Shown here one piece after another: positions 10,888 through 60,747 of a stretch of 64,000 nt of DNA. The stretch lies in assembly GCA_047601665.1 (NCBI GenBank), contig JASGIT010000001.1, forward strand, positions 96,638-160,637, written 5' to 3'. The position numbers and the translations under genes are program-made. A model generated the notes under the pieces. It saw nothing but the letters and a program-made list of their open reading frames with translations. It was not told the origin of the DNA and did no database searches. This DNA is from Acidovorax sp. Lineage in GTDB: Bacteria > Pseudomonadota > Gammaproteobacteria > Burkholderiales > Burkholderiaceae_C. Position 1 is the first letter of the stretch. The number at the start of each line of letters is the position of its first letter.

Positions 10888-10978
10888 CGGATGCCATGCC
10901 CTGTTGTTGTTTGAAGGGTGACTCTAGGCAGCGCGGCGCCCACGCGCCATGCCGCGTGGGCGCGATGGGATACCGTGT

Positions 10979-46337: not shown

Positions 46338-47198
46338 CCGCTCTTAGAGCGTGTTTACGATCTCTTTCCCGACAATCCTTGTGTGAAGAGAAAGCAGTAC
46401 CCAAGCGACATCAGTCGAGAGAAGTTTGCCGAGATCGAGCCGCTGCTGCGCAGCGTTCGGCGCAGCACCAAACCGATCAAGCAGGATCTGTACGAGGTGT
46501 TCTGTGCAGTGCTGTACCTGCTTCGCACGGGTTGTCAGTGGCGCTATCTGCCGCCGCAGTTCCCCAAGTGGCACAACGTCTATGCGTACTGGCGCAAGTG
46601 GAGCGAACCTGACCAGCACGGAGTGAGCGTGCTGGAGCAGGCTTTAAAAAAATCAGGTTGGCGCGGCCCGAGAGAGACTGGGGCGCAACGCTTGCAGCGC
46701 GTTCTTGATCGTGGACGCGCAGAGCGTGAAGAACACGGACACGGCAGGGTTTAAGGGCTATGACGCAGGCAAGAAAGTCTCGGGCATCAAGCGACACATC
46801 GCGGTGGACACCCAGGGGCTACCCCATGCAGTGGTGGTAACCACAGCCGAAGTGACTGATCGCAAAGGAGCGCTTGCGGCATTCAAGCGCTGCAAGCAGT
46901 CGTTGGGGCAGGTGCAAAGCGTGCTGACGGACAGCGGCTACACAGGCGAGCCCTTCGCGCAGGGCCTCAAGGACATCCTGGGTGAGCATGTGACGGTGCA
47001 GATTGCCAAGCGAAGCGAACTGCACGCCTTCAAGGTCATGCCCAAGCGCTGGATCGTCGAGCGCAGCTTTGCCTGGCTGGAGAAGAATCGCAGGCTGTGG
47101 AAGAACTGCGAGCGTTGGCTCAACACCAGCTTGCAGTTCGTCCACTTGGCGTTTCTGGCTCTGCTGCTCAGGAGATCGTAAACACGCTCTTAGAGCGG
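46338..47198 (+). mobile_element. IS5-family insertion sequence (861 bp), structurally complete
   Basis: 27-bp terminal inverted repeats with 1 mismatch: CCGCTCTTAGAGCGTGTTTACGATCTC (46338-46364) against GAGATCGTAAACACGCTCTTAGAGCGG (47172-47198). They enclose a two-frame transposase. No clear target duplication seen. Confidence 0.85.
46383..47181 (+). CDS. IS5-family transposase in two overlapping frames (46383-46754 and 46648-47181) bridged at an A7 run
   Basis: OrfA reads MKRKQYPSDISREKFAEIEPLL...YWRKW. OrfB reads ...IVDAQSVKNTD...DSGYTGEPF...WIVERSFAWLEKNRRLWKNCE (DDE). The A7 run is at 46646-46652. OrfB is in the +1 frame relative to OrfA. Confidence 0.8.
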
Positions 47199-47995: not shown

Positions 47996-48646
47996 ATGCA
48001 CATTCTTGTTATCGATGACCATCCGCTGTACCGCGAAGGCTTGAAGGCTCTGCTGTGGGGGCTAAGTGAGAACGTGGATGTCACAGGCGCGTCGTCGCTG
48101 GACGAAGCGATACCGATGCTGCAGGGCGGTCTGAGTTTTGACCTCGTGCTGCTAGACATGAATTTGCCAGGAAGGTCTCACCTTGAAGCACTGACTGCCG
48201 TGAAGGCCGAAGTCGAGGACGCGCCGGTTGTCGTGGTGTCTGGAGACATCGAGCCGGTGCTCATCATGAAAACCATCGAGGCGGGTGCTGCCGGCTACAT
48301 CCCGAAGACAACCGATCAGGCGGTAACGATCAATGCGCTCCGGCTGGTGCTGGCGCACGGCGTGTATCTGCCGCCGGAGGCGTTGCGCGCATCGGGCACG
48401 ATGGAAGCACCGGCCGGGCAGCAGCCATTGCTCAACCTGGACGCACTGAGCGAGCGACAGCGCGCGGTGCTCAAGCGGCTGCTGCAGGGCAAAGCCAACA
48501 AAGTCATCGCTCGAGAGCTGTCCATCGCCGAGGGAACGGTCAAGGCCCACCTGTGGTCCGCCTACCAGGTACTCGGTGTTTCGTCGCGGATGCAGGCCAT
48601 GTGTCGCGTGCATGAACTCGATTTGATGGACGCGCTGGGCGACTGA
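47996..48646 (+). CDS. NarL/FixJ-family response regulator
   Basis: REC domain (MHILVIDDHPLYREG..LVLLDMNLPG..VVVVSGD) plus LuxR HTH (LSERQRAVLKRLLQGKANKVIARELSIAEGTVKAHLWSAY). Confidence 0.88.
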   Translation: MHILVIDDHPLYREGLKALLWGLSENVDVTGASSLDEAIPMLQGGLSFDLVLLDMNLPGRSHLEALTAVKAEVEDAPVVVVSGDIEPVLIMKTIEAGAAGYIPKTTDQAVTINALRLVLAHGVYLPPEALRASGTMEAPAGQQPLLNLDALSERQRAVLKRLLQGKANKVIARELSIAEGTVKAHLWSAYQVLGVSSRMQAMCRVHELDLMDALGD

Positions 48647-48648
48647 AC

Positions 48649-50376
48649 ATGCCCGCCCCGCTCGCGTCCACCGTCGAGCAGGAGCTTCTCGACGCCTATG
48701 CACAGCAGGGACCGCGAGTTCCGATTGCCGTGTTGCTGTCCGCGCTGTTGATCGTCGCAATGGCCTGGAGCACGGCGCCTCTGGGCCTAAGCATGGGGTG
48801 GCTTGCCGCCGTCGCCATGGTCCTGATCATCCGCAGCGCGGTGCATCTGTGGGCTTCCCGGTCGCACCGCGTGCCGACTCGGCGCCGCATGTGGGCGGTG
48901 ACCGTGGTCAGCCTTCTGGGCGGCATCGCACACGGTTCGTCGATCCTCTTCTGGCCTTACCTGTCCGACCTCGAGCGTGCGGTGCAGTCCACTTATGTAC
49001 TGGCGCTTTCTTCGGGGGCGGTCGCGGCGGTAATCGGCTACATGCCGGTCTTCGTGGCGTACATGCTGCCATTGTTTCTGCCGTTGGTGTACAGCTGGGT
49101 CGTGATGCTGGCCACAGCGGCAGACGGGATGCACCGTGGCACGGCGGCTGTGATCTTGCTGCTTTTCAGCATCTACGGCGGCCTGCTGATCGTGCTAGCG
49201 CGCGACACCTTCAACCATTACCGCGAGTCGTTCGACACTCGGTGGAAGCTGCACGAGGCGCTTGAGCGTGCCGAGTCGGCCAGCCGCGCGAAGACCCGTT
49301 TCCTCGCATCGGCCAGCCATGACCTGCGCCAGCCGATGCACACACTCACGCTGTTCGGAGCGGCGCTCGCAGTGATGAGCCTGCCCGACCGCGCGCGCCA
49401 CGTGGTCAGCCAGATGAATCTGGCGCTGCTGGCCCTGAGCGAACAGCTCGACGCGCTGCTCGACGTGTCCAAACTGGATGCGGGCGTGATGCCCGTCAAC
49501 CTGCAGCCGTTGGCACTGCACCGCTTGCTGGAGCCGCTCGGATTGGAGTACGAGGCCGCAGCGCGCCGCAAAGGCCTGGCGTTCAATTTGGCTTGCGAGC
49601 ACGATCTGGTGGCGATGGCCGACCGGTCGCTTCTTGAGCGCGTGTTCCGCAATTTGATCGACAACGCTGTCAAGTACACGGTTGCTGGCCGCGTGCAGGT
49701 CGCAGCGCATGCCGAAAACGGCAACATCATCGTGCGCGTGAGCGACACCGGCATCGGCATTCCCGCGGTCGAGTGCGAACACGTGTTTGAGGAGTTCTAC
49801 CAGATCGGCAACCCTGAACGCGACCGCAGTCAGGGCATGGGCCTTGGGTTGTCGATCGTTCGCCGTCTGGTGGATCTGATGCAACTGACGCTTGAACTTC
49901 GATCGACGCCGGGCGCCGGCACCGAGGTGACGCTGGGGCTGCCGCGCACGTCTCCGCTCGCGCCGATGGCCGAACCGTTAAAGCCGGTACCGGCCGATGT
50001 CGCCGGGTTACATCTGCTGGTCATTGACGACGAAGAACAAGTGCGCCAAGGTATGCAGATCGTGCTCGAAGGGCTGGGCTGCGAAGTGGTCACTGCCCGC
50101 GATCGCGCCACCGCGCATGCCGCCGCCGACCGGCACAGGCCTGACGTGGTGCTCGCCGATTTCAGACTGCGCGGACAGGACACCGGCATCGCGGTCATCA
50201 AAGAGTTGCGCCGCCGCTGGCCTGGTCTGCCGGCACTGCTGGTCAGCGGCGACACCGCGCCAGAGCGTTTGCGGGAAGCCGATGCTGACGGACTGCATTT
50301 GTTGCACAAGCCTGTGCAACCGCATGCCCTGATACAGGCGATCCGCGACGCAGCTGATGGCGTCGTGGGTCGCTAG
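48649..50376 (+). CDS. hybrid sensor histidine kinase / response regulator with a membrane-embedded N-terminal sensor
   Basis: About 6 TM helices, H-box SASHDLRQPMHTL, N-box RNLIDNAVKYT, G-boxes DTGIGIP and GMGLGLSIV, C-terminal REC domain (LLVIDDEEQV..VVLADFRL..LLVSGD). Confidence 0.88.
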   Translation: MPAPLASTVEQELLDAYAQQGPRVPIAVLLSALLIVAMAWSTAPLGLSMGWLAAVAMVLIIRSAVHLWASRSHRVPTRRRMWAVTVVSLLGGIAHGSSILFWPYLSDLERAVQSTYVLALSSGAVAAVIGYMPVFVAYMLPLFLPLVYSWVVMLATAADGMHRGTAAVILLLFSIYGGLLIVLARDTFNHYRESFDTRWKLHEALERAESASRAKTRFLASASHDLRQPMHTLTLFGAALAVMSLPDRARHVVSQMNLALLALSEQLDALLDVSKLDAGVMPVNLQPLALHRLLEPLGLEYEAAARRKGLAFNLACEHDLVAMADRSLLERVFRNLIDNAVKYTVAGRVQVAAHAENGNIIVRVSDTGIGIPAVECEHVFEEFYQIGNPERDRSQGMGLGLSIVRRLVDLMQLTLELRSTPGAGTEVTLGLPRTSPLAPMAEPLKPVPADVAGLHLLVIDDEEQVRQGMQIVLEGLGCEVVTARDRATAHAAADRHRPDVVLADFRLRGQDTGIAVIKELRRRWPGLPALLVSGDTAPERLREADADGLHLLHKPVQPHALIQAIRDAADGVVGR

Positions 50377-51530
50377 ATCAGGTGTGCAAAAGCATGGTCG
50401 CGGTCAGCGCCGTGAGCTGATCGGAACACCACCTCTAGCGGTGCGCCGTCGGTTCCGGTGATCTCGAGGAAGCCGTCGTCGAGGTGCTCAGGGAAGTACG
50501 CCACAACCGTGGCGGTCCAGCTTGCACCTGACGGGCTCACGAAATCGAACGAATCCATCTCAGCGAAGTCCTCCGGCACAGCGTTGGCGAAGGGGTAAGG
50601 TGCGTAAAGCGCCCCGGCGTGCACCGACCACAGCTTGACGACCGTTCGATCCACACCATTGCGCTGGAGCGTGATCTCCGCGACGCAAGGAATGTGCTCG
50701 TCGCCTGAGAGGAACACACAGTTTTTCAAACCGCAGTCGACAATGTGGCCGAGCACCTCGTGCAACGACGAGGGGTAGCCGTCCCACGCGTCGGAACGGA
50801 TGGCCGCACCTGAGGTGCTTTCGACTGTGGTGAGGCGGCGAGGGAGCAATATGGACGACGTCGCGACGAATTTCCACGCTGCGGCGGGCGCTCGGCCAAG
50901 CGTGCTGACGAGAGCGCCCATCTGTTCGCTCGACATGATTCGCGCCGCTTTGAGGTCTCTGGCGTCGCGCACGCTGCGCTCGGTCCGCGAATCGCCGATG
51001 AAGAGGCAATGGCCGGAGAGAAGTTGCGCCGGCCCGAACAGCGACGGCCGCGCAGGCGGATGTTCTATGCCGCGCTGCTTCTGCAAGAAGAGAGAGATGG
51101 CGGCTGCCATATCCGCTTCGAGTTGGCTGTTCCGAGCGACATGCGCACTGGGTTCCCAGTTGTCTCCCACCTCATGGTCGTCCATCAAGGCCACGTGCTT
51201 GAAGTTCTCGATCGCCATGTTGCGCCACACCTCTTTGCCGAGGGTTGCGTAGGCTCGTTCCAACGGCGCGTCCCTTTGTCGGGGATCGAACAGGCCAGCC
51301 GTGGCATCCACGTAGATCTGATCACCGGTCATCACCAGATCGGCACGAGAACTTTGACTAATTTGGATCTCGCTGTTGCGGTGAAGCCATCGCCTGAAGG
51401 CATGATCGGATGGTCCCGGCAGATTGGCAGAGTCAGTCAGTGGCCCGTTAGGTTTTGGACGGCGCGATCGCTCAAGCAGGCCGCCTGGGTATTGGCAGGC
51501 GGCGAGCACCAGGTACACTTGGGTCGTCAC
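50373..51530 (-). CDS. PhoD-like metallophosphatase without a signal peptide
   Basis: Motifs GDQIYVDA, DDHEVGDNW, FLSGDEH. GTG 51530 overlaps the stop of the upstream gene (GTGA). The N-terminus MTTQVYLVLAACQYPGG has no twin-arginine motif. Confidence 0.7.
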   Translation of the reverse strand: MTTQVYLVLAACQYPGGLLERSRRPKPNGPLTDSANLPGPSDHAFRRWLHRNSEIQISQSSRADLVMTGDQIYVDATAGLFDPRQRDAPLERAYATLGKEVWRNMAIENFKHVALMDDHEVGDNWEPSAHVARNSQLEADMAAAISLFLQKQRGIEHPPARPSLFGPAQLLSGHCLFIGDSRTERSVRDARDLKAARIMSSEQMGALVSTLGRAPAAAWKFVATSSILLPRRLTTVESTSGAAIRSDAWDGYPSSLHEVLGHIVDCGLKNCVFLSGDEHIPCVAEITLQRNGVDRTVVKLWSVHAGALYAPYPFANAVPEDFAEMDSFDFVSPSGASWTATVVAYFPEHLDDGFLEITGTDGAPLEVVFRSAHGADRDHAFAHLI

Positions 51531-52150
51531 GGTTGCGACCTCTTGATGACGGCACCGTATAAGGACTGCTCAAGCGCCTTCCTCAAAGCCTCCAGTTCCG
51601 TAGGCGACGCGGAGCCTTCGATCTCCTTAGATCCAAAAAGCAACTGTCCCGACGCGACATGCGCAAACGTCTCGGGAGGGGAGAGGTTGAGTTTGGCGGT
51701 GATGTCCGTCGCAATGTTGGAGACGGCTGTTGCTGTCTCCGGTTCTCCGACGTCACGCAAGACCTGGACAGCCGAAGCGAAGACCTTCATGTATTCCATG
51801 TAGAAAAGAGTGGGCGCCTGCACGATGAACACCACAGCGGCGCCCTCTGCCGTCCCGGTCACGCCGAAATCGAACGCCACATCAGCCGTGCACCCGCCAT
51901 GCTGATCCCTCTTGGCGACGAACGACTTCTTCTTGACTTCCCAGTCGCTTGTAGGAATCCATTCCGGAGCTGGAGGGATCTTGCCTTCGGCGTCGCGTTG
52001 GAGCGCTACAGGGATGGCCCATACCCGCCTCGAATCAGCGTGGCTGTCCAGCTTCGCCGTTGCCTTCACGACCGTTCCGCTGGAAGTTTCGTTCTGCAGA
52101 CCGTCTGCCGGGAGCGCGTGGTACCCATACAAAGTATCGAGAGTAGCCAT
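51527..52150 (-). CDS. hypothetical protein (207 aa), middle gene of the GMC/PhoD-like operon
   Basis: ATG 52150 with an AGGATAGG-type SD, 13 nt after the stop of the upstream giant gene. No motif recognised. Translationally coupled to the downstream gene. Confidence 0.55.
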   Translation of the reverse strand: MATLDTLYGYHALPADGLQNETSSGTVVKATAKLDSHADSRRVWAIPVALQRDAEGKIPPAPEWIPTSDWEVKKKSFVAKRDQHGGCTADVAFDFGVTGTAEGAAVVFIVQAPTLFYMEYMKVFASAVQVLRDVGEPETATAVSNIATDITAKLNLSPPETFAHVASGQLLFGSKEIEGSASPTELEALRKALEQSLYGAVIKRSQP

Positions 52151-52163
52151 GTTGCCTATCCTT

Positions 52164-55100
52164 TCAAGTAGGAGAGCTGAGGAATGACAGGATGACGTCG
52201 AACGCTTTGCCACGATCACGACCAATCAGTAGATCCTGATGGCCGATTCGTTCGAAAACCTGTGGAGGGGACATCTTTGTCAGCTGTTTATCTCTTTTCC
52301 ACTCCATCAACATCTGCGCGTTCGCGCCGGTATCGGCCAGCCCGTTGGTACGCCCGTGCAGGCTTAGCATGCGTACGCCTGTCAGCAGATGCCAAGGGTC
52401 TTCACCGAACACACTTAGACCTGTTTGCTCGGCAGGTTCGCCGTACTTTGCAAAGTAAATGGGCTGCGAAATGGTCGCCAGGTTCAGCGGACCGAAGAAG
52501 TCGTCAATGCAAGCAAGCACTTCCTCGTCCATCGTGCGCGAATCGAAAGTGCGGCCAATCAGCGCATCCAGCCGGCGGCGCGTGCCAACCCATGGTCGGC
52601 GAAGCCACGGAAGTCGAGGGTTCTCGATGTCGAATTCAGACCCGTCCTCATCATCTAGGTACGGTAGCGTCGCGATGAGGCGGTCGTACAGCGTAGCGTC
52701 GACTCGACCGACGCGCTCCCCGGGGCGCAGGCTGTAGTGGAAGTCCGGCAACAGGTGGCGGAACCAGCTCAGCAGGTACGCACGCAGCAGGTTGGCCGGA
52801 GCGAAGCGCATCTTTGTGCCAAATTGCGACATCACCCAGCAGCGCATGCGTGCGGCCGTCGCTGCGGCGTGCGGCTGGCCTTGGTCGCTCAGCGTCATCG
52901 TCAGCATAACGGACCCCATGCAGTGCGAGACTACGTCCACCTGCGGCATACCGGTCCGTGCGCAGACCTCGCGCAGCGCGGCCGGAATGTCATGGCGTGC
53001 GATCTCCTCAAAGCTGTAGGCGTGATCGGCGGTCGGCATCCCGCAGCTCGTCCGCATGTCAAGCACCCAGGGTTCGCGGCCGTGGCGCCACAGATACTCC
53101 GCAAGGCTGGGCCGCAGCGCGGGATGCGCGAAGGTCGTTCCGCTGGCGCTGTAGCCGTGGATCATAAGCACCGGGGGGTGAAGAGCTTTGGCCACGGGAT
53201 AGCGTGTCAGCCGGATCTCGCCGGCCGACGATCCGTCGGGTACGAACTCGAAGATCTCGGGCTCGGGTAGGCCGGGCAAAGCGCCAGGCAGGCGTTGGGC
53301 CGCCCGTACCGTGCGCGCCTGGTCAGGCTTTCGGCCACTCCACAAGTGGACGCTGACGAACACGCGAAGCACATAGAGCGTGAATGCCAGGACGTCGATC
53401 AGTGCCGCCGGCTGGTTTTCCTGCCCGACCACCCTTATCAGTGGTATCTGTCTGCGGGCGAAGTAATCAAGGCTGACGTCGATACTGCGCCTGGCGCCCA
53501 GCTGCAATCCGCCGAATGCTGCCAGCTTCATCCGCGTCAGCTGAGTCCAAGGGTTGGCGCGCCGATCGTAGGTAAAGCGCTTGCCGCCTTTCAGCACGAG
53601 GCCGTGCTGGCCGACCAGTTTTGCGAAGCGGCGTGTCGCTTCCTGCAAGCGCTGAGCATCGTCCTTGAACTTTGGATCGAAGGGCGGGATCAGTGGCGCT
53701 CCCAGCTTAAGGTCGTAATCGAAGAGTCGCACCTCGCCGGCACGTGTAGCCAGCGCCAGCGACTGGCAAAAGCGATCCCTCACCGAGAAGGCCGTGGCGC
53801 TCTTTCGACCCTGGATCTTGTCGAGCGCGACGTCGATCAACGCGAGGACGCTATCACGCAAGCCGCGGTTCCACAGCCAAGCGGTCCATGCGCGGCATCG
53901 GCGCAGCTTCCACGTCGACGACTCGCGATGCAGGAAGCGCAGTGTGCTGCCCGCGGCTAGGGGCACCCTGAGCATAGGCGGGTCGGATTCCAGATCTTCG
54001 GACATGTAGTCGCCGACCTTCCATCGGTACAGGCGGACCTCGCTGAGCGTGTCGTCAACGGCGACCTGCAGAACGTGCCCCTGCTGCGTGAAAGCTGGGC
54101 GGCTACCATCGTCGGGCGTTGGACCGGGAAATAGCGCACGCGGCTCGTAGACAAGCGAGAGTTGCATCCACGCAGGCTCACCGTCGAGGTCGACCGGCCC
54201 GGATAGCTTCTCGATCACCTGCACCTCGGTGCGTCGGGGAATCGGCCTGCCATTGCGCTGCGCGAAGACAGGACGCGGCACGGATAGCGGAACCTTTGGC
54301 GACGCTGGTCGGGTGAGCGCCCAGTGCACGTCAATCAAGCGTTCGATGGCGAGGTCCGCGAGCGTCGAAATGGTCAGTGCCGGGTTGATGCCGATCGACC
54401 CAGGAACGATGGCGCCGTCCAGCACCACAAGGCCTTCGTGGACTGCCGTCAACTTCGCCTCAGCCGCTCCGTCAAAGACACGTCCGTCCCGGTCGACCAC
54501 GCCGTGACTGCGGTCGTCCGCCATGCAGCACCCGCCAAGTGGGTGGACACTGACCAACGGACCGCGTTCAGCGCCGAGGGTCTTTTCGGCTCCGGGCGGC
54601 AGGAGCTTCCACACAGGATTGGGAATCAGTCTGTCAGATGCCCCCAGCATCTCTGCAAAAGCCTTATGAGCCTGGTCGAAGCGTTCGTCGTTGCGCAGCC
54701 TGCGCCAGTCGATGCGCACCCCGGCATCGAGCGGAAGTTCGTGGTCCTGCGGAGCTGCCGTCATGACGCCGTCGGCGCCGTCGCGAGCAATCAGCGCGAC
54801 CACCTGCGAACGCTCGATCTGCCCTGGATCGACAGCAAGCGGGTCGGGTGCGCTTGCCGCCCCTGGGTCGTCGTGAGCGAGGTGGACGTCGAGATCGGGC
54901 TCGTCAAGCTTGTGCAACAGCAAGGCCGTGGTCACGCCCTCCTCAAGCAGCCGCACGAGCGCGCCTGGCACGGCGAGGTCCTGCACGACGAAGCCCCCGC
55001 CGGCGTTGCGCTTGTCGATCATGGTCGTGATGGTCGGCCCAACCTGGCGCGCGGCCGGCGCCACCACCTCATCCGCCACTCCGTGGAACACGCGCTGCTG

Positions 55101-56132
55101 CGATGCCACGGTCGCGACTAGGTCGCCATTAGCCGAGAAGCGACGGCCGAGCGCGGGCGAAAACGACAAGCCCGACTCCTGGGAGCGCATCAACAGCTCA
55201 GTGGAACCAAGGGTGCCCGCAGCCAGCACCACGCGCCTGGCCGACAGCACGACCGGCCCCGCCATGCGCTTGCGTAGTGCCACATCGGTGTGCCAGACCT
55301 CCACCTCCCATTTGTCGGTGTCGCGCCTCAAACGGGTCACCGTTGCACCGGAGAAGATCTCTACACCGCGTACCTGGGCGCGACGCAACAGGCCGAGGTC
55401 CAGCGAGATTTTGGAGCCGTGGTTGCAGCCGGTGGCGCAGTCGCCGCAGGCAATGCAGCAATTCATCTTGACTCCGCCCACGCTCTGCAGGTTCTCGTCG
55501 AGCGCTACGGTAATCGGCACTGTGGCGGCACCGAGGGCTTTCATCGATCCTACGCGCCTTAGCGAATGACGCACCGTGTCCTTCGCATTAGGGTCAGCGC
55601 CAAGCTCGGCTTGAAGGCCTTCAGCGCGCTGAGCCAGCGTCAGGCCTTGATTTAACAAGCCGACCGGCCACATCGACTCCTGGAAAATCGCCGGTTCTGG
55701 AAATGCCATCACCCCGGCGTTGATCAAAGACCCGCCTCCAACGCCGTTGCCCACCAGCACCGACACGTCCGTGCCAATGCGTATGTCGAACAAGCCTTCG
55801 AGACGGCCACTCGCTTTGTCGCCCTGGGGCGTCGTAAAACGCACATGACCGGCGAGGTCGGCCGCACGATCGGGAAAAGAGCCCGTCAGGTGCTCGCGAC
55901 CGCGTTCCAGCACCGCGATGCTCAATGGCCCCTGCGTATCCGAGGTGCCAGCGAGCCGGTCGGCCGCGATGGCCCCGCCGTAGCCAGACCCGATGACCAG
56001 CACGTCGAAGTCGGGTCGCCCCGAACGCTGCGTGCGACGCGCGTCCAAACCTTGGATCAAAGTCTCGAAGCCGTGGGACACCCAGCTGGTGCGGCGACTG
56101 TTTGTCTGCGGCGACTGGCCGTTGCTCTGCAT
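52164..56132 (-). CDS. 1322-aa fusion protein: N-terminal GMC (cholesterol-oxidase-like) FAD oxidoreductase, central region of unknown function, C-terminal alpha/beta-hydrolase fold
   Basis: ATG 56132 lies 7 nt after GGAGGG. FAD fingerprint DVLVIGSGYGGAIAADRL, then GNGVGGGSLINAG and C-x2-C-x2-C-x3-C (NCCIACGDCATGC). GMC C-terminal block VHPLGGCCMADD...LVVLDGAIVPGSIGINPALTI. Hydrolase part PPVLMIHGYSASGTTF...VDVVSHCMGSVML. Confidence 0.75.
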   Translation of the reverse strand: MQSNGQSPQTNSRRTSWVSHGFETLIQGLDARRTQRSGRPDFDVLVIGSGYGGAIAADRLAGTSDTQGPLSIAVLERGREHLTGSFPDRAADLAGHVRFTTPQGDKASGRLEGLFDIRIGTDVSVLVGNGVGGGSLINAGVMAFPEPAIFQESMWPVGLLNQGLTLAQRAEGLQAELGADPNAKDTVRHSLRRVGSMKALGAATVPITVALDENLQSVGGVKMNCCIACGDCATGCNHGSKISLDLGLLRRAQVRGVEIFSGATVTRLRRDTDKWEVEVWHTDVALRKRMAGPVVLSARRVVLAAGTLGSTELLMRSQESGLSFSPALGRRFSANGDLVATVASQQRVFHGVADEVVAPAARQVGPTITTMIDKRNAGGGFVVQDLAVPGALVRLLEEGVTTALLLHKLDEPDLDVHLAHDDPGAASAPDPLAVDPGQIERSQVVALIARDGADGVMTAAPQDHELPLDAGVRIDWRRLRNDERFDQAHKAFAEMLGASDRLIPNPVWKLLPPGAEKTLGAERGPLVSVHPLGGCCMADDRSHGVVDRDGRVFDGAAEAKLTAVHEGLVVLDGAIVPGSIGINPALTISTLADLAIERLIDVHWALTRPASPKVPLSVPRPVFAQRNGRPIPRRTEVQVIEKLSGPVDLDGEPAWMQLSLVYEPRALFPGPTPDDGSRPAFTQQGHVLQVAVDDTLSEVRLYRWKVGDYMSEDLESDPPMLRVPLAAGSTLRFLHRESSTWKLRRCRAWTAWLWNRGLRDSVLALIDVALDKIQGRKSATAFSVRDRFCQSLALATRAGEVRLFDYDLKLGAPLIPPFDPKFKDDAQRLQEATRRFAKLVGQHGLVLKGGKRFTYDRRANPWTQLTRMKLAAFGGLQLGARRSIDVSLDYFARRQIPLIRVVGQENQPAALIDVLAFTLYVLRVFVSVHLWSGRKPDQARTVRAAQRLPGALPGLPEPEIFEFVPDGSSAGEIRLTRYPVAKALHPPVLMIHGYSASGTTFAHPALRPSLAEYLWRHGREPWVLDMRTSCGMPTADHAYSFEEIARHDIPAALREVCARTGMPQVDVVSHCMGSVMLTMTLSDQGQPHAAATAARMRCWVMSQFGTKMRFAPANLLRAYLLSWFRHLLPDFHYSLRPGERVGRVDATLYDRLIATLPYLDDEDGSEFDIENPRLPWLRRPWVGTRRRLDALIGRTFDSRTMDEEVLACIDDFFGPLNLATISQPIYFAKYGEPAEQTGLSVFGEDPWHLLTGVRMLSLHGRTNGLADTGANAQMLMEWKRDKQLTKMSPPQVFERIGHQDLLIGRDRGKAFDVILSFLSSPT

Positions 56133-56456: not shown

Positions 56457-57137
56457 ATGCTCGACGCTCTCGCAACCGCGCCGCATCCGCACAGTGCACT
56501 AGCTGGTCTGAGCCGGCCAGCCGTGAAGTCCGACGTCACATGGGAATCGACCGGACTCTGGGCGGCGCTACTTGATGAACTGGACTACGGCATCATCCTC
56601 GTCGAACCGCACGGCGAAATCGTGCATGTCAATCGGCAGGCCAGGCGCCAGCTGCAACTGGAAGGACCGTCATCCATCTGGGGTTGTGCACTGTGCGCCG
56701 TCGATTCACTGCCAGGCCAACGGCTTAAACATGCCATCAGGCAATCGTCCGAACGGGGATTGCGCGGCGCGGTGCAACTGCGTTCTCCAAATGAGTCACT
56801 GGTCGTGTCGGTCATTCCACTGCAGTTGCGCGCGTCTTTGGACGGCAGCCTAACTATGCTGCTGTTGCAACGCCCGCAGATCTACACCGAACTCGCGCTA
56901 ACGGGGTTTGCCAAGCTGCACGGCCTGACCGACACAGAGACAAGCGTGCTCAGCGCCCTATGTGAAGGCCGCGCCGCGCAAGGGATTGCGCAACGACAGG
57001 GGGTTGCACTATCGACCGTCCGCACCCAGCTGCAGTCGCTTCGCTCCAAGCTCGGGGTGGATAGCGTACGTGCGCTGATTCACTTGGTCGGGCGGCTGCC
57101 GCCCGTGATGGGCGTGCTGTGCTCCGAGCGGAAGTAA
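56457..57137 (+). CDS. LuxR-family transcriptional regulator with an N-terminal PAS-like domain
   Basis: AAGGGA lies upstream of ATG 56457. PAS-like block LDYGIILVEPHGEIVHVNRQARRQL. C-terminal HTH LTDTETSVLSALCEGRAAQGIAQRQGVALSTVRTQLQSLRSKLG. Divergent from the giant gene. Confidence 0.8.
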   Translation: MLDALATAPHPHSALAGLSRPAVKSDVTWESTGLWAALLDELDYGIILVEPHGEIVHVNRQARRQLQLEGPSSIWGCALCAVDSLPGQRLKHAIRQSSERGLRGAVQLRSPNESLVVSVIPLQLRASLDGSLTMLLLQRPQIYTELALTGFAKLHGLTDTETSVLSALCEGRAAQGIAQRQGVALSTVRTQLQSLRSKLGVDSVRALIHLVGRLPPVMGVLCSERK

Positions 57138-57254: not shown

Positions 57255-57505
57255 CGGAGGAGGCTAATAAAAGGTGCCATGACAAGCAAGCAACATACCC
57301 TGAAGAGTTCGAGAGCGAAGCGGTCAAGCAGATTACGGAGCGAGGCCACCGGGTGGCTGACGTGTTCGCCCGGATCGGCGTAAGCCAGCACAGCCTGTAC
57401 AAGTGGATCAAGGCGTACTCGACGCCTGCAGCCGAACGATAGGTGCCAATTCACCGGCCATGAGTGGCAGACGTTCTTGCGAGCACAACCTGGTCACAGC
57501 CGCAC
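57255..57505 (+). pseudogene. IS3-family remnant (OrfA fragment fused by deletion to a short OrfB piece)
   Basis: Reads ..YPEEFESEAVKQITERGHRVADVFARIGVSQHSLYKWIKAY (OrfA HTH), then ..FTGHEWQTFLRAHNLVT (integrase core piece). Contains frameshifts and stops. Confidence 0.6.
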
Positions 57506-57536
57506 CAAATACGTGTTTAACGACGGGAGGAACGAG

Positions 57537-59009
57537 ATGAAAGCGTACGTAATCGCAAACTGCACCGCCGCACTCACCTTGCTGCAGGGGTGCACCAGCC
57601 TCAACGCCGTCAAGGTCACGGATGGCGTCATGAAGGTCGAAGGCGCACCTTACTTCTTGACCTTCACCCAGTACGACTTCACCATTAAACGCCGGTTGAC
57701 AAGTTGCGCCGATGTCGATGAGAAGGTCGTCCCGCCCACGCGCATTCCCAACATGAGAGTCACGACGACGGTCAAGGCCAAGCGCAGGGAGGCGCGAGAC
57801 CCTACTCGCGAGTACGTCATCGACTTCGCGGCATTGCGAAGCTTCTTCAAGACGACCGACGTGGCAGTGGACTACTACGAGAATGGCGCCCTCAAGTCGG
57901 TCAACGCAACGGTCGCGGACAGCACGGCTGAGTTTCTGGCCAGCACCTTCAAGGCCGCAGCGAAGGTTGCCGCATTGGGAACCGGTGTAGGCGGCGGGTC
58001 GCCGGAAGCCTGCACTGACGAAATCCTAAAAGCTGTCGTCGCAGCGAAAGATGGGGAAGACCGCCTCACCGCCAAGACGGCGTTGCTCGCGCAACAGACC
58101 CAGCGGTTGGAGGCACTGCAGTCGGTGGCTGTGGCCCTGGGACCTACGCGCAATGCAGCGGAGCGTCGAGAGTTTGCGGACCAGGTCAGGGCGTTATATG
58201 ACCTGAAGGCGGAGGTAGACAAGGAGCAGAAGGAGCTCGCCCGCCTGTTGAAGAAGTTGACCATCACCGACACGGTGACTTGGCCGAAGGACGGTTCAAC
58301 CTTCTCGGGAGAACTTGCCAAACCCCTGACCCTCGAAGCCCTTGAGCGATGGGGTGTCTTGGACGACCTCATCAAGGACCGGTTGGTAAAGGAGACGGGG
58401 GTCTACGCGCTGATCGGCACAGACTCGCCGCCTGCAAAGCATGTGGTATGCGTTGGCGACAGCTGCGAGAAGACGACGCCCGTCGAAGACCTCCCAGGTC
58501 TCAAGTACAGGATGCCCATGGCCGGAAATTTGAAAGCCTGTAGCAACGCTACGTGTGCCGGCAACGACGCCGAGCTGTACAAGGATGCGGGCCTGTTTAG
58601 CCAACTGGGACCGGTCATGACGCTGCCGCTGAAGAACTATCCGTTTATGACGCAAAGCATCGTCCTGACCATGAACGAAGTAGGGCAGCCCACGAAGATC
58701 GGCTACAAGTCCGAAGCCAATGCGGCCAAGGCGATGGACATGGTTAACAGCTTTGTCGATGAGTACGGCAAGGTGCGCCAGGCAGACAAGCCCAAGTCCG
58801 AACTGGACCGGGTTAACGAGGAGACGGCTTTGCTCGAGGCCAAGGCGAAGCTTGCGACAGCCAAGACGGCGCTGGACGCTAAGCCCAACGAGGAACAAAC
58901 CACTGCGACGGATGCCCTGAAGGCCGACACGGCGCTACTGGAGGCGGAACTGGCAAAAATGAAGGCCCAAGCGGCGCTGGATGCAGCCAAGAAGCAGGCG
59001 ACACCGTGA
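57537..59009 (+). CDS. lipoprotein (490 aa) with a coiled-coil C-terminal region
   Basis: GGGAGGA lies upstream of ATG 57537. Lipobox LTLLQGC. Long Ala/Lys/Glu-rich helices (QTQRLEALQ.., EETALLEAKAKLATAKTALDAK..LEAELAKMKAQAALDAAKKQ). Possibly DUF4831-like, from uncertain memory. Confidence 0.65.
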   Translation: MKAYVIANCTAALTLLQGCTSLNAVKVTDGVMKVEGAPYFLTFTQYDFTIKRRLTSCADVDEKVVPPTRIPNMRVTTTVKAKRREARDPTREYVIDFAALRSFFKTTDVAVDYYENGALKSVNATVADSTAEFLASTFKAAAKVAALGTGVGGGSPEACTDEILKAVVAAKDGEDRLTAKTALLAQQTQRLEALQSVAVALGPTRNAAERREFADQVRALYDLKAEVDKEQKELARLLKKLTITDTVTWPKDGSTFSGELAKPLTLEALERWGVLDDLIKDRLVKETGVYALIGTDSPPAKHVVCVGDSCEKTTPVEDLPGLKYRMPMAGNLKACSNATCAGNDAELYKDAGLFSQLGPVMTLPLKNYPFMTQSIVLTMNEVGQPTKIGYKSEANAAKAMDMVNSFVDEYGKVRQADKPKSELDRVNEETALLEAKAKLATAKTALDAKPNEEQTTATDALKADTALLEAELAKMKAQAALDAAKKQATP

Positions 59010-59827
59010 CCGAGCAGTTGCCCGCGGACGATCTGGTGGCCGACAGCGCTCCATTCTCGACCGGGGTGGTCGACGAACCTGAGTGGCTGCCCGAGCGATC
59101 AACCCTGGAGTCAATGACGAGGTGGCTTCGCAGTTTCGTCACCCGAGCCTTCGAAGCCACGCCGCAACAGGCGTTCAGTTGGGACGACCAGCAGGTAGTG
59201 CCTCAACCCGGAGACCAGCAAAAGACGAACGCCTGCGTCAGCTATGCAAGTTGCCTGGCTGCTGCGTCACTGTACCGCATCAAAACTGGCAAACCGATCT
59301 CGCTTGCTCCCCGCGTCTTTCATGCGTGCACGGTGGGGCGCGGTTTGAAAGAAGGCTTCAATTCAAGCCTTCTGGAGAGAAAGGTAGTGGAGCATGGCCT
59401 GCCGACCACGGTCAATCCGGAACAGACAAGCCGGGCAGAGGCACTGACCGGCGAGGCGCAGTGCGGGTCCTTCGCCTCGACACCGCGGCTCAAGGTGTCT
59501 TCGGTACAACGGCTGTACAGCCCGGAGGAGGCCAAAGCAGCGCTCAGATCCATCGGACCGGTAGTGGTTCACATGGACCTCACCGAGGATTTTCTGGATT
59601 GCTACGTTGCGGGAAGCATTTACTCCGCTCCTCCTGGCACCAAGATCCTGACAAGCCACGCCGTGTGCGTCATCGGGTATGACGACACGCGGGGCTGCTG
59701 GATCTGCGTGAACAGCTACGGGCCGACGTGGAGACACACGAACCGTGGTCGGTTCTTCCTGAAGTACGGCGAATGTAGAGTGTTGGCGCCGGGAGCTGCC
59801 GCGTACCGATTGAACATCGAGGTCTGA
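59006..59827 (+). CDS. papain-fold (C1-like) cysteine peptidase, no signal peptide
   Basis: GTG 59006 overlaps the lipoprotein stop (GTGA). Gln/Cys block DQQKTNACVSYA (Cys codon 59234-59236), His block TSHAVCVIGYDD (59657-59659), Asn/Trp block VNSYGPTW (59711-59713). Confidence 0.72.
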   Translation: MTEQLPADDLVADSAPFSTGVVDEPEWLPERSTLESMTRWLRSFVTRAFEATPQQAFSWDDQQVVPQPGDQQKTNACVSYASCLAAASLYRIKTGKPISLAPRVFHACTVGRGLKEGFNSSLLERKVVEHGLPTTVNPEQTSRAEALTGEAQCGSFASTPRLKVSSVQRLYSPEEAKAALRSIGPVVVHMDLTEDFLDCYVAGSIYSAPPGTKILTSHAVCVIGYDDTRGCWICVNSYGPTWRHTNRGRFFLKYGECRVLAPGAAAYRLNIEV

Positions 59828-59939: not shown

Positions 59940-60341
59940 GTGAACACTATTTCCGATCAACAAGGCAGCCCGCGTCGGCGGCGTCGCCTACACAGCGATG
60001 AATTCAAAGCCGATGCCGTGGCCAGTTGCATGCAACCCGGCATGTCAATGGCGGCCGTGGCGCTGGCCCACGGCGTCAATGCCAACCTGCTGCGCCGTTG
60101 GGTCCGCGAGGCCGAGCTGAGGCCGCCGGGCATCGCCCCGGACAAACCCGCCGCTTGTGACATCGACACTCCAGAGGCCAAGCCGTTGTTCGTCCCCGTG
60201 AGCCTGCCGCCACCGGTTGCAGCAGCACCGGTCGCCGACATCCACATTGAGCTGCAGCGTGGTGCCACAGCGATCATCGTCACTTGGCCAGCCAGCGCCG
60301 CCAGTGAATGCGCCGCCTGGATGCGTGAGCTGCTGCGGTGA
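59940..60341 (+). CDS. tnpA: IS66-family accessory protein TnpA (Orf1)
   Basis: 133 aa. HTH-like block FKADAVASCMQPGMSMAAVALAHGVNANLLRRWVRE. Confidence 0.85.
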   Translation: MNTISDQQGSPRRRRRLHSDEFKADAVASCMQPGMSMAAVALAHGVNANLLRRWVREAELRPPGIAPDKPAACDIDTPEAKPLFVPVSLPPPVAAAPVADIHIELQRGATAIIVTWPASAASECAAWMRELLR

Positions 60342-60679
60342 TCCGCATCGACGCGATGTGGCTGGCGGTCGAGCCCATCGACATGCGCGCCGGTGCCGAC
60401 CGGCTGCTCGCACGCGTGGTGCAGGTCTTCGGCGCCGCCCAGGCCTACCACGGCTACCTCTTCGCCAACGCTCGCGGCACCCGAATCAAACTGCTCGTGC
60501 ACGACGGCTTCGGCGTGTGGTGCGCCGCGCGTCGCCTCAACGCAGGCCACTTCACCTGGGCCATGGTTACCTCGGGCGGTCCTACCGCGCTAGAACTTGG
60601 GCGCGCTCAGTTCGACGCGCTGGTGCTTGGCCTGCCTTGGCAGCGTCTCCCAGAGCTGCAGCGCATCTGCCGGGCATGA
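60338..60679 (+). CDS. tnpB: IS66-family accessory protein TnpB (Orf2)
   Basis: 113 aa. IRIDAMWLAVEPIDMRAGADRLLARVV...RIKLLVHDGFGVWCAARRLNAGHF. Overlaps the tnpA stop. Confidence 0.9.
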   Translation: MIRIDAMWLAVEPIDMRAGADRLLARVVQVFGAAQAYHGYLFANARGTRIKLLVHDGFGVWCAARRLNAGHFTWAMVTSGGPTALELGRAQFDALVLGLPWQRLPELQRICRA

Positions 60680-60747
60680 CGGCCGTGCGCTGACAACGGC
60701 AGTTGTGCCAATGGTGCTGCCCGGCCGTGCCTGGCACGATGCCAGCC

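What the first reader, a model, noticed from the sequence alone, without database searches (positions are those of the whole stretch)
50373..56132. Tight three-gene operon: giant GMC-oxidoreductase/alpha-beta-hydrolase fusion, unknown 207-aa protein, cytoplasmic PhoD-like phosphatase
The three minus-strand genes are packed with a 13-nt gap and then a GTGA start/stop overlap, which implies co-translation. Gene 1 (1322 aa) fuses three parts: a cholesterol-oxidase-like GMC flavoenzyme (FAD fingerprint, GMC C-terminal block, a C-x2-C-x2-C-x3-C cluster), a ~350-aa middle region I cannot assign, and a C-terminal alpha/beta-hydrolase. Gene 2 has no recognisable motif. Gene 3 has PhoD-type metallophosphatase motifs but lacks the Tat signal expected of canonical PhoD. 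None of the three has an export signal. Together they suggest a cytoplasmic pathway combining alcohol oxidation, (thio)ester chemistry and phosphoester cleavage on one substrate, possibly a lipid, sterol/hopanoid-like or phosphorylated polyol. I know of no described pathway with this composition. The operon is carried on an IS-bounded cassette with its own regulators.
Basis: partly seen in the sequence, partly recalled or inferred. Interest (0 to 1): 0.72.

Follow-up and report, generated by a model that had tools for sequence, protein, structure and literature searches.

The report
Split multi-domain flavoenzyme–hydrolase–phosphatase operon
The three genes are real and are the separated pieces of one very large, widespread but unstudied bacterial enzyme that combines an alcohol-oxidising flavin domain, a lipase-like domain with a cysteine active site and a phosphatase; the enzyme nearly always sits beside its own membrane sensor, and its substrate is unknown, though it is probably a lipid.

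Summary
In detail: three minus-strand genes (1322, 207 and 385 aa), a 13-nt gap, a GTGA overlap and the stated domains.

The operon is not a local oddity. It is a three-way split of a conserved megaenzyme. Relatives occur in at least 587 species genomes. A PhoD-like module follows the GMC/hydrolase module in all 77 loci with enough downstream sequence. In 37 of those loci everything is one ORF of about 1900-2000 aa. A cognate hybrid histidine kinase lies next door in 64 of 81 loci.

Family-wide features:
- An invariant CxxCxxCxxxC motif in the cholesterol-oxidase-like domain, probably an Fe-S site.
- An invariant cysteine, not serine, at the nucleophile elbow of an acid-lipase-like hydrolase.
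- A confidently modelled middle domain of about 300 aa with no match in the PDB.
- An intact PhoD-type metal motif set with no export signal.

The 207-aa protein belongs to a tiny, fast-diverging family under purifying selection. It is homologous to the N-terminal part of a linker-PhoD fusion in a relative, so it is most likely the detached linker domain.

Eight full-text searches found no paper on this architecture. The substrate is unknown. The nearest characterised relatives of all three catalytic domains act on lipids.

The parts
52164..56132 (-). Gene 1, 1322 aa: GMC flavoenzyme, middle domain M, and alpha/beta-hydrolase
   Evidence: ORF and start codon. Pfam and NCBIfam hits. 100% identical to MFT3811868.1. 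More than 1500 homologues have the same build.
54318..56012 (-). Cholesterol-oxidase-like GMC/FAD domain (aa ~41-605), with GSGYGG at 48-53, H530 in HPLGGC and N583 in GINPAL
   Evidence: A PDB profile search gives cholesterol oxidase at E 6e-28.
55425..55460 (-). Cys cluster C225-C226-x2-C229-x2-C232-x3-C236. The four Cys in CxxCxxCxxxC spacing are invariant. Probable Fe-S (or metal) site.
   Evidence: Invariant in 20 sequences and at least 90% conserved in 61. Absent from cholesterol oxidase at the aligned position. Weak ferredoxin-type match to HdrC, E 0.03. Precedent: the 3Fe-4S cluster of BcGDH (PMC6719666).
53328..54245 (-). Middle domain M (aa ~630-935): beta-rich with two long helices and many invariant Arg/Asp/His (R744, NRGLRD 755-760, R802, K851, R923, H929)
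   Evidence: AF2 pLDDT 90.2, pTM 0.86. No significant PDB or BFVD match, best E 0.03. No Pfam hit. Nothing found by PDB profile search.
52167..53270 (-). Acid-lipase-like alpha/beta-hydrolase (aa ~955-1322): HG 992-993, nucleophile elbow S-H-C1071-M-G, GH1298QD
   Evidence: AF2 pLDDT 89.7. Foldseek gives lysosomal acid lipase 6v7n at E 7.7e-15 and gastric lipases. PDB profile search gives gastric lipase at 2.5e-8. H1070, C1071 and G1073 are invariant in 61 sequences.
51527..52150 (-). Gene 2, 207 aa: free form of the fast-evolving linker ('Y') module
   Evidence: Only 4 clusters were found in both large protein searches. dN/dS is 0.30. An HMM of 11 free middle proteins hits the N-terminus of a 624-aa Y-PhoD protein at E 2.7e-8. 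hhalign against the general Y linkers gives P 0.007.
50373..51530 (-). Gene 3, 385 aa: PhoD-type metallophosphoesterase with no Tat signal and no N-terminal domain
   Evidence: Pfam PhoD 66.4 bits. 37% identical to the C-terminus of the 1997-aa Variovorax fusion, E 3e-60. Motif residues C12, D70, Y73, D75, D117, D118, H119, D247, D277, H279 and N316 are conserved.
48649..50376 (+). Cognate hybrid histidine kinase (575 aa). About 6 TM helices in the first 190 aa with no periplasmic domain, then HisKA, HATPase and REC. Its stop overlaps the gene 3 stop by 4 nt.
   Evidence: Pfam, hydropathy. A full-length homologue is adjacent in 64 of 81 loci.
47996..48646 (+). NarL/FixJ-type response regulator (REC + GerE)
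   Evidence: Pfam. Adjacent in about 39 of 81 loci.
56457..57137 (+). Divergent GerE-type regulator with a weak PAS match. Part of the cassette shared with the closest relatives.
   Evidence: Pfam. Conserved in L001 and in L084 and L085. The DNA-level cassette runs 47.9-57.1 kb.

Best explanation
The three cistrons encode one enzyme that has been split. In about half of related genomes the same modules form a single protein of about 1900-2000 aa, in this order: cholesterol-oxidase-like FAD domain with a Cys4 cluster, domain M, acid-lipase-like hydrolase with a cysteine nucleophile, linker Y, and PhoD-like metallophosphoesterase. Here the protein is cut after the hydrolase and after Y. Gene 2 is the free Y module. 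Tight translational coupling keeps the pieces at 1:1:1.

Shown:
- The modules co-occur or are fused.
- The catalytic motifs are conserved.
- Export signals are absent.
- A dedicated multi-TM hybrid histidine kinase with a NarL-type regulator is conserved alongside.

Inferred: the assembly works in the cytoplasm, probably at the inner face of the membrane, on one amphipathic, lipid-like substrate. The proposed steps are:
1. The PhoD-like module removes a phosphate or phospho-head group.
2. The hydrolase cleaves or transfers an acyl group through a Cys1071 thioester intermediate.
3. The FAD domain oxidises the exposed hydroxyl using the ChOx-type His530/Asn583 pair.
4. The electrons pass through the Cys4 (Fe-S) site to an acceptor other than O2, such as a quinone.

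Expression is set by the adjacent intramembrane-sensing kinase.

My probabilities: one functional unit 0.95; cysteine as catalytic nucleophile 0.7; Cys4 as an Fe-S site 0.5; lipid-type substrate 0.45.
For: Fusion and co-occurrence:
- PF09423 (PhoD) is fused in about a third of the best 120 homologues.
- Gene 3 aligns to residues 1590-1948 of a 1997-aa Variovorax protein at E 3e-60.
- In 82 fetched loci, PhoD-like sequence follows on the same strand in 77. The other 5 are cut by contig ends. It is one ORF in 37 loci and separate in 40.
- The gap between the hydrolase and PhoD matches is 500-750 nt everywhere, the size of gene 2.

Gene 2:
- Three-gene splits with free middle proteins of 160-221 aa occur in seven independent relatives.
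- An HMM of the free middle proteins hits the N-terminus of a Y-PhoD fusion at E 2.7e-8.
- dN/dS is 0.30.

Regulation: a kinase is adjacent in 64 of 81 loci.

Catalytic features:
- Invariant C226/C229/C232/C236, H530, N583, HG992-993, H1070-C1071-G1073 and H1298.
- PhoD motif residues are invariant.

Nearest characterised relatives all act on lipids:
- Cholesterol oxidase.
- Lysosomal and gastric acid lipase.
- A PhoD-type phospholipase D, 9UYA.

Fe-S precedent in a GMC enzyme: PMC6719666.

A distant Ralstonia paralogue keeps both Cys features and also has a metallophosphoesterase nearby.
Against: - No substrate or activity is known, and all similarities to characterised enzymes are remote. 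NCBIfam scores are 131 against a cut-off of 850 for cholesterol oxidase and 25.7 against 1000 for PhoD.
- Homology between gene 2 and the general Y linker is weak. hhalign gave P 0.35 with the small profile and 0.007 with the enlarged one. HMMER did not bridge the two.
- The Cys4 motif could bind Zn instead of Fe-S. Zinc-finger hits score nearly as well as ferredoxin hits.
- No electron-acceptor partner is encoded in the cassette.
- Domain M gives no functional clue.
- No lipid-metabolism genes are conserved nearby.
- Operon transcription was not measured.
Confidence: 0.6

Rival explanations
1. Sterol or steryl-ester scavenging. The lipase-like domain de-esterifies steryl esters taken from eukaryotic material. 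The cholesterol-oxidase-like domain converts the free 3-beta-hydroxysterol to the 3-ketosteroid as the first step of catabolism.
For: The best characterised relatives are cholesterol oxidase and lysosomal acid lipase / cholesteryl ester hydrolase.
Against: The score against the cholesterol oxidase equivalog is far below threshold, 131 against 850. The enzyme is cytoplasmic, whereas cholesterol oxidases are exported. No steroid-degradation genes are conserved nearby. The reading explains neither the obligatory PhoD module, nor the Cys4 site, nor the Cys nucleophile.
Confidence: 0.1
2. Phosphate-starvation membrane remodelling. The PhoD-like module acts as an intracellular phospholipase C/D on phospholipids, as PlcP does, and the other domains process the lipid remainder or the head group.
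For: PhoD family membership. A PhoD-type phospholipase D exists and is the best PDB sequence hit. The hydrolase is lipase-like.
Against: The cognate regulator is a dedicated hybrid kinase with a NarL-type regulator, not PhoBR. No glycosyl- or acyl-transferase for replacement lipids is conserved nearby. No Pho-box analysis was done.
Confidence: 0.12
3. 3-Hydroxyacyl polyester (PHA-type) metabolism. The Cys-hydrolase works like a PHA synthase or an intracellular PHA depolymerase, and the flavoenzyme oxidises 3-hydroxyacyl ends.
For: Cysteine in the lipase box, as in PhaC and PhaZa1 (established knowledge). Weak NCBIfam hits to PHA synthase and PhaZ7 around the nucleophile elbow.
Against: Those hits are far below the cut-offs: 11.6 against 622 and 15.7 against 450. 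No PhaC structure appears among the PDB sequence or fold hits shown. The PhoD module is unexplained.
Confidence: 0.08
4. A mobile toxin or effector with gene 2 as its fast-evolving immunity or adaptor protein, carried on an IS-rich island.
For: Gene 2 diverges far faster than its neighbours: 29-38% aa identity against 62-88%. It forms a hole in otherwise 75-80% identical DNA. IS elements, Fic and TniQ genes lie nearby.
Against: Most relatives are chromosomal and fused, and they pair with a two-component system rather than a secretion system. Gene 2 is homologous to a domain covalently joined to PhoD in L084. PADLOC gives no hit. dN/dS of 0.30 shows ordinary purifying selection.
Confidence: 0.03
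5. Three unrelated genes that merely lie next to each other.
For: None beyond the lack of direct transcript data.
Against: The genes are fused into one ORF in 37 loci, the order is conserved in 77 of 77 informative loci, and start and stop codons overlap.
Confidence: 0.01

Closest known systems
Type I cholesterol oxidase (Streptomyces/Brevibacterium; GMC family; PDB 1B4V, 1COY)
   Same: FAD Rossmann fingerprint, the overall GMC N and C domains, the HPLGGC histidine and the G(I/V)NP asparagine segment. It is the best PDB sequence match, E 6e-28.
   Different: Only about 130 bits against the 850-bit equivalog threshold. No export signal. Carries four invariant cysteines where cholesterol oxidase has ALATEVIYG. 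Embedded in a 1300-2000-aa multi-domain protein.
Direct-electron-transfer FAD dehydrogenase complexes (Burkholderia cepacia FAD-GDH alpha subunit with 3Fe-4S; PDB 6A2U)
   Same: A GMC flavoprotein with a conserved cysteine cluster at a comparable sequence position that carries an Fe-S cluster for electron exit (PMC6719666). A weak sequence match, E 1.8e-6.
   Different: The cluster spacing differs: CC-x4-C-x3-C with three ligands, against CxxCxxCxxxC with four. No cytochrome c subunit and no Tat hitchhiker subunit is encoded here. The match covers only the C-terminal part.
Acid lipases (human lysosomal acid lipase 6V7N; gastric lipases 1HLG, 1K8Q)
   Same: The best structural match of the C-terminal domain, E 7.7e-15. 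An HG-x-x-x-S oxyanion motif and a C-terminal G-H-x-D histidine motif.
   Different: The nucleophile is cysteine (S-H-C-M-G), not serine, and this is invariant in the family. About 15% identity. Cytoplasmic and fused to other enzymes.
PhoD phosphodiesterase / PhoD-type phospholipase D (B. subtilis PhoD 2YEQ; S. avermitilis PLD 9UYA)
   Same: Pfam PhoD domain above threshold, with the Cys / GDxxY / DDHE / DxWDGY / GDxH motif set conserved.
   Different: No Tat signal. No PhoD_N domain. Only a 48-88-residue stretch aligns to the solved structures. NCBIfam PhoD score 25.7 against 1000. Always physically linked to the GMC/hydrolase module.
Ralstonia solanacearum megaplasmid 1150-aa 'choline dehydrogenase' (AXW64341.1) with a downstream metallophosphoesterase
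   Same: GMC domain 31% identical. The CxxCxxCxxxC motif and the H-C-x-G nucleophile elbow are both kept. A phosphoesterase gene lies nearby.
   Different: A shorter middle region. The phosphoesterase is calcineurin-like (PF00149), not PhoD. A RoxA-like di-haem cytochrome c ORF lies between the two genes. It is also uncharacterised.

Membership tests
GMC oxidoreductase superfamily | N-terminal FAD-binding GxGxxG Rossmann fold and GMC_oxred_N/C domains above the Pfam thresholds | tested here: met
   GSGYGG at aa 48-53. PF00732 scores 42.5 (cut-off 23) and PF05199 scores 44.3 (cut-off 24.6).
GMC oxidoreductase superfamily | Conserved C-terminal catalytic His and Asn/His pair | tested here: met
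   H530 (HPLGGC) and N583 (GINPAL) are invariant in 20 sequences. The Asn segment aligns to the GVNPF of cholesterol oxidase. Equivalence of the His to ChOx His447 rests on my recollection of the ChOx sequence.
Cholesterol oxidase ChoxAB (NCBIfam NF058674 equivalog) | Full-length score at or above the curated cut-off of 850 bits | tested here: not met
   131 bits, covering only aa 41-342.
Cholesterol oxidase ChoxAB (NCBIfam NF058674 equivalog) | Exported enzyme (Tat/Sec signal) | tested here: not met
   No hydrophobic N-terminal segment. The SRRTSW stretch is followed by conserved polar residues (W17, G21, E23, L25), not by an h-region. No dedicated signal-peptide predictor was available.
Fe-S-containing GMC dehydrogenases (BcGDH type) | Conserved Cys cluster that ligates an Fe-S cluster near the flavin | tested here: inconclusive
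   Four invariant Cys in ferredoxin spacing. HdrC 4Fe-4S motif match at E 0.03, but zinc-finger matches at E 0.24-0.4. Metal content is not testable here.
Fe-S-containing GMC dehydrogenases (BcGDH type) | Multi-haem cytochrome c subunit and a small Tat 'hitchhiker' subunit encoded alongside | tested here: not met
   Neither is present in the window cassette or conserved in related loci. Gene 2 has no twin-arginine motif.
Alpha/beta-hydrolase, acid-lipase-like | Alpha/beta-hydrolase fold | tested here: met
   AF2 pLDDT 89.7. Foldseek gives 6v7n at E 7.7e-15, and 876 PDB matches at E<=0.001.
Alpha/beta-hydrolase, acid-lipase-like | Serine nucleophile in G-x-S-x-G | tested here: not met
   S-H-C1071-M-G, with the Cys invariant in 61 sequences.
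PHA synthase / intracellular PHA depolymerase (Cys-type alpha/beta-hydrolases) | Cysteine in the lipase box | tested here: met
   C1071.
PHA synthase / intracellular PHA depolymerase (Cys-type alpha/beta-hydrolases) | Family-level sequence similarity (TIGR01838 cut-off 622) | tested here: not met
   11.6 bits, around the elbow only. No PhaC structure appears among the PDB sequence hits or the 50 fold hits shown.
PhoD alkaline phosphatase/phosphodiesterase | PhoD catalytic domain with conserved metal-binding motifs | tested here: met
   PF09423 scores 66.4 (cut-off 27). D70, Y73, D75, D117, D118, H119, D247, D277, H279 and N316 are invariant, and C12 is at least 90% conserved. This is motif-level evidence only. 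No structural check of the ligands was made.
PhoD alkaline phosphatase/phosphodiesterase | Tat signal peptide and extracytoplasmic location | tested here: not met
   The protein starts MTTQVYLVLAACQYPGG, directly at the catalytic core. In fused relatives the domain is C-terminal in a 1900-aa protein.
PhoD alkaline phosphatase/phosphodiesterase | NCBIfam PhoD equivalog score at or above 1000 | tested here: not met
   25.7 bits.
Known anti-phage defence systems (PADLOC) | Any component matching a PADLOC model | tested here: not met
   No hit for any of the three proteins at E<=0.1.

The most novel reading that the evidence does not exclude
The family is a self-contained, previously unrecognised kind of megaenzyme. 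It makes or destroys a membrane-derived signalling or stress lipid by coupling three steps: phospho-head-group removal, thioester-mediated acyl transfer, and Fe-S-linked (oxygen-independent) alcohol dehydrogenation. Two new protein folds or modules (M and Y) do the substrate handling, and the product or substrate is what the co-conserved intramembrane histidine kinase senses.
Probability: 0.2. Interest if true: 0.75.

Novelty: new variant of a known kind. Interest (0 to 1): 0.55.

Why it matters
The module occurs in at least several hundred species of environmental Proteobacteria, including Roseateles, Massilia, Variovorax, Ramlibacter, Cellvibrionales, Bradyrhizobium and Ensifer. Databases label it variously as cholesterol oxidase, alpha/beta hydrolase or alkaline phosphatase D, and none of these describes the whole.

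It combines features that are individually unusual:
- A cholesterol-oxidase-like flavoenzyme with a ferredoxin-type Cys4 motif.
- An acid-lipase fold with a cysteine nucleophile.
- A cytoplasmic PhoD.
- A confidently folded 300-aa domain with no structural relative.

The natural split in this window gives ready-made domain boundaries for expressing the parts separately. The dedicated kinase and regulator give a handle for finding the inducing signal. Working out the substrate would correct a large block of misleading annotation and may reveal a new lipid or phosphoester pathway.

Tried and rejected
- Direct BLASTP of gene 2 against the linker of a 1997-aa fusion found nothing.
- hhalign of the 5-sequence gene 2 alignment against 24 linkers was not significant, P 0.35.
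- A HMMER profile of gene 2 against 1.84 billion representatives found only its own 4 clusters.
- Iterative HMM searches stalled after reaching L084 and L004.
- The idea that Y or gene 2 is the PhoD_N domain was rejected at Pfam level: none of 31 PhoD-like or Y-PhoD proteins matched.
- Domain M had no significant PDB or BFVD fold match, no Pfam hit and no PDB profile hit.
- The region has no near-identical match in the plasmid collection and no PADLOC hit.
- Rfam found no riboswitch or leader in the window, only a tRNA at 26446-26518.
- The promoter and terminator scan found nothing above the shuffle expectation.
- Repeats in the gene 1 / regulator intergenic region gave only short, unconvincing matches.
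- Neighbour clustering across 81 loci found no conserved partner beyond the kinase and regulator. Many clusters were spurious antisense ORFs in high-GC DNA.
- Eight literature searches found no paper on this architecture (plus two for background). One earlier search failed on syntax.
- The toxin-immunity reading and the chance-adjacency reading were considered and rejected (see rivals).

Full report
**1. Observation**

The three minus-strand ORFs exist as described.
- Gene 1 is 52164..56132: ATG start with GGAGGG upstream, 1322 aa.
- Gene 2 is 51527..52150, 207 aa. Its ATG lies 13 nt after the gene 1 TGA and is preceded by AAGGATAGG.
- Gene 3 is 50373..51530, 385 aa. Its GTG start overlaps the gene 2 stop as GTGA.

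All three are identical to proteins annotated in an Acidovorax sp. MAG on a 4.66-Mb contig: MFT3811868.1, MFT3811867.1 and MFT3811866.1.

Pfam gives GMC_oxred_N and GMC_oxred_C above threshold, a sub-threshold Abhydrolase_1 match, PhoD at 66 bits for gene 3 and nothing for gene 2. None of the three has an N-terminal hydrophobic segment. The gene 3 stop also overlaps, by 4 nt, the stop of a convergent hybrid histidine kinase gene.

**2. The operon is a split megaenzyme**

A search of 5.8 billion proteins returned more than 1500 homologues of gene 1. Nearly all have the same GMC, middle and hydrolase build. About a third of the best 120 are 1870-2007 aa long and also carry the PhoD domain. Gene 3 aligns to residues 1590-1948 of a 1997-aa Variovorax boronicumulans protein at 37% identity, E 3e-60.

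The carriers are mostly Burkholderiales, Cellvibrionales and Nevskiales, plus Bradyrhizobium, Ensifer and Chelatococcus.

In the 82 loci then in hand (the 80 fetched by that scan plus the two metagenome loci L001/L002):
- PhoD-like sequence follows the hydrolase on the same strand in 77. The other five are cut by contig ends.
- In 37 loci the whole thing is one ORF. In 40 it is split, usually into GMC-M-hydrolase plus Y-PhoD.
- The distance between the hydrolase match and the PhoD match is always 500-750 nt, the size of gene 2.

The three-gene split seen here is shared by a clade with at least ~49% identity in gene 1. Seven independent metagenomic or genomic relatives carry free middle genes of 160-221 aa. 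One clade member, L084, instead has a 624-aa Y-PhoD protein. The split is therefore real and not an assembly artefact, and the gene 1 'fusion' is the conserved state.

**3. Gene 2**

Its recognisable family is tiny. Four clusters were found by the word-indexed search and the same four by an exhaustive HMMER profile search of 1.84 billion representatives.

It diverges much faster than its neighbours. Between the window and L001 the identities are gene 1 76%, gene 3 62%, kinase 85%, regulator 88% and gene 2 29%. At DNA level the cassette shared with L001 and L086 (47.9-57.1 kb, 73-80% identity) has a hole exactly over gene 2.

Against the closest relative (L091), dN/dS is 0.30, like gene 3 at 0.27. 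Gene 2 is therefore a genuine coding gene under purifying selection.

Evidence on its relation to the linker:
- BLASTP links gene 2 to the free middle proteins of L087 (E 4e-5) and L085 (E ~1e-4 to 9e-4).
- An HMM of 11 middle proteins hits the N-terminal 230 residues of the L084 Y-PhoD protein at E 2.7e-8, and the free ORF of L004 at E 8e-4. The search database held 1315 sequences including decoys.
- HMMER did not reach the linkers of distant fused proteins.
- hhalign of the enlarged profile against 58 linkers gave P 0.007 over 86 collinear columns, against 0.21 for the reversed control. An earlier, smaller comparison gave P 0.35.

I conclude that gene 2 is most likely the detached, weakly constrained Y module. 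Homology to L084 is shown. Homology to the general linker is inferred from position and size and is only weakly supported. Y is not a PhoD_N domain by Pfam.

**4. Domain features**

*GMC domain*
- The best PDB sequence matches are type I cholesterol oxidases, E 6e-28 with the family profile.
- H530 (HPLGGC) and N583 (GINPAL) are invariant. The Asn segment aligns to the cholesterol oxidase active-site segment.
- Where cholesterol oxidase has ALATEVIYG, this family has C-C-I-A-C-G-D-C-A-T-G-C. C226, C229, C232 and C236 are invariant in 20 sequences and at least 90% conserved in 61.
- That spacing is the ferredoxin 4Fe-4S pattern. The segment weakly matches the HdrC cluster motif at E 0.03, but zinc-finger sequences score nearly as well.
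- A precedent exists in the same superfamily. The B. cepacia FAD glucose dehydrogenase binds a 3Fe-4S cluster through Cys212, Cys218 and Cys222 in a surface loop and uses it to pass electrons out of the flavin (PMC6719666).

*Hydrolase*
- An AlphaFold2 model of aa 601-1322 is confident: pLDDT 89.7, pTM 0.89.
- Its best PDB neighbours are human lysosomal acid lipase (E 7.7e-15) and the gastric lipases, in agreement with the profile search.
- The HG oxyanion motif (992-993) and the GH1298QD motif are conserved.
- The nucleophile elbow is S-H-C1071-M-G, and the cysteine is invariant. This points to a thioester covalent intermediate, as in PHA synthases and dienelactone hydrolase (established knowledge). 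There is no family-level similarity to PHA synthases.

*Middle domain M (aa ~630-935)*
- Modelled alone it is again confident, pLDDT 90.2 and pTM 0.86. It has about twelve strands and two helices of 26-34 residues.
- Foldseek finds nothing significant in the PDB. The best hit is E 0.03 with TM 0.22 to GID4-type beta-barrels. BFVD also gives nothing.
- The domain holds many invariant charged residues (R744, N755-R756-G757, R759-D760, R802, K851, R923, H929, R934), so it is likely to bind substrate or contribute to catalysis.

*PhoD-like module*
- The Cys / GDxxY / DDHE / DxWDGY / GDxH motif residues are invariant or nearly so in 31 family members.
- Similarity to solved PhoD structures is confined to a short stretch. 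The best hit, 9UYA, is a PhoD-type phospholipase D.

**5. Context**

A full-length homologue of the hybrid kinase lies next to the enzyme in 64 of 81 distinct loci. The kinase has about six TM helices, no periplasmic domain, and HisKA-HATPase-REC. It is usually directly upstream on the same strand, and often comes with the REC-GerE regulator.

Of the 17 loci without the kinase, six or seven are truncated. Seven are alphaproteobacterial and instead carry a regulator of about 1340 aa with adenylate cyclase, STAND ATPase and TPR domains. No other neighbour is conserved.

In the window the six-gene unit is regulator, kinase, gene 3, gene 2, gene 1 and a divergent PAS/GerE regulator. It lies between an IS5-type element (46.4-47.2 kb) and IS66 (59.9-62.4 kb), inside a stretch of lower G+C. 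The same six genes recur in L001 with different flanks. The regulators therefore belong to the module, and the IS elements only reflect its recent mobility in this lineage.

**6. Mechanism**

*Shown:* the modules form one functional unit, their catalytic motifs are under strong constraint, and no export signal is present.

*Inferred:* a cytoplasmic, probably membrane-peripheral enzyme acts on one amphipathic substrate. The proposed steps are phosphoester cleavage (PhoD-like), acyl cleavage or transfer through a Cys1071 thioester, and FAD-dependent oxidation of a hydroxyl, with electrons leaving through the Cys4 site.

The lipid reading rests on three points:
- The nearest characterised relatives of all three catalytic modules are lipid enzymes: cholesterol oxidase, acid lipase / cholesteryl ester hydrolase, and PhoD-type phospholipase D.
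- The sensor kinase is purely membrane-embedded.
- Each of these similarities is remote, so I give the lipid reading about 0.45.

The rival readings are sterol-ester scavenging, phosphate-starvation lipid remodelling, PHA-type chemistry, a toxin-immunity pair and chance adjacency. They are listed with their weaknesses in the rivals section.

**7. Comparison and novelty**

Each domain belongs to a known superfamily, but none meets the curated equivalog thresholds. The defining accessories of the closest families are absent:
- Export signals.
- The serine nucleophile.
- The cytochrome c and hitchhiker subunits.
- The PhoD_N domain.

A more distant paralogue on Ralstonia solanacearum megaplasmids (1150 aa) keeps both cysteine features and again has a metallophosphoesterase gene close by. 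This suggests that the GMC/Cys-hydrolase/phosphoesterase association is older than this family.

Eight full-text searches found no description of the architecture. This is absence of evidence within the library searched.

**8. Verdict**

I rate this a new variant built from known kinds of domains. It is well suited to experimental follow-up and of moderate to good interest.

Noticed in passing
window 57477-59827 (+): A 510-aa ORF with no Pfam hit overlaps by 4 nt a 273-aa papain-family cysteine protease (Peptidase_C1, 54 bits). The pair lies between the PAS/GerE regulator and IS66. It is not present at the equivalent place in L001, so it is probably separate island cargo.
   Followed up: partly
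window 39876-43352 (+): A 1158-aa ORF has no Pfam family at E<=0.01. It lies in the low-GC part of the window next to a weak TauD-like ORF (38709-39665).
   Followed up: no
window ~34000-64000: G+C drops from about 0.70 to 0.60-0.65 and stays low to the end of the window. The stretch holds three transposase loci: DDE_Tnp_1 at 35529-36518, a two-ORF IS5-type element at 46383-47181, and IS66 with its TnpA/TnpB at 59940-62397. It looks like a horizontally acquired island. A tRNA lies at 26446-26518.
   Followed up: partly
window 50373-50376: The convergent kinase gene and gene 3 overlap at their stop codons, which leaves no room for a terminator. The same tight convergent arrangement is seen in L001, L086, L088 and L089. 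In most other clades the kinase lies upstream on the same strand.
   Followed up: partly
window 51430-52450 versus L001 and L086: Gene 2 is a sharply bounded hyper-divergent patch inside an otherwise 73-80% identical 9-kb cassette, yet its dN/dS against the closest relative is ordinary (0.30). The cause of the fast long-range divergence is not explained.
   Followed up: partly
L043, L058, L064, L069, L073, L079, L082; L093 3624-7634: In Bradyrhizobium, Ensifer and Chelatococcus the two-component system is replaced by an adjacent protein of about 1340 aa with adenylate/guanylate cyclase, AAA/STAND and TPR domains. This is a different regulator for the same enzyme.
   Followed up: partly
L092 (Ralstonia solanacearum megaplasmid CP023017.1) 6959-13690: A 1150-aa GMC/Cys-hydrolase paralogue that keeps the CxxCxxCxxxC and HCxG motifs. 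It is followed by an ORF missing from the incomplete PLSDB gene table, with two CxxCH haem motifs (RoxA-like cytochrome c), and then by a calcineurin-like metallophosphoesterase. The arrangement is present on 127 Ralstonia megaplasmids.
   Followed up: partly
gene 1 aa 908-932 (window 53337-53411): A strongly hydrophobic 25-residue helix (Kyte-Doolittle 2.06) sits at the M/hydrolase junction and contains invariant D913, R923 and H929. It is modelled as a long, high-confidence helix, and its packing could not be inspected. It could be a membrane-contact element.
   Followed up: no
L001 1-8000 and 21000-23957: The closest metagenomic copy of the cassette is surrounded by IS66, TniQ, an AAA_31 ATPase, an IS5-type transposase and a Fic-domain gene. 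These flanks differ from the window's, which is consistent with independent mobilisation.
   Followed up: no
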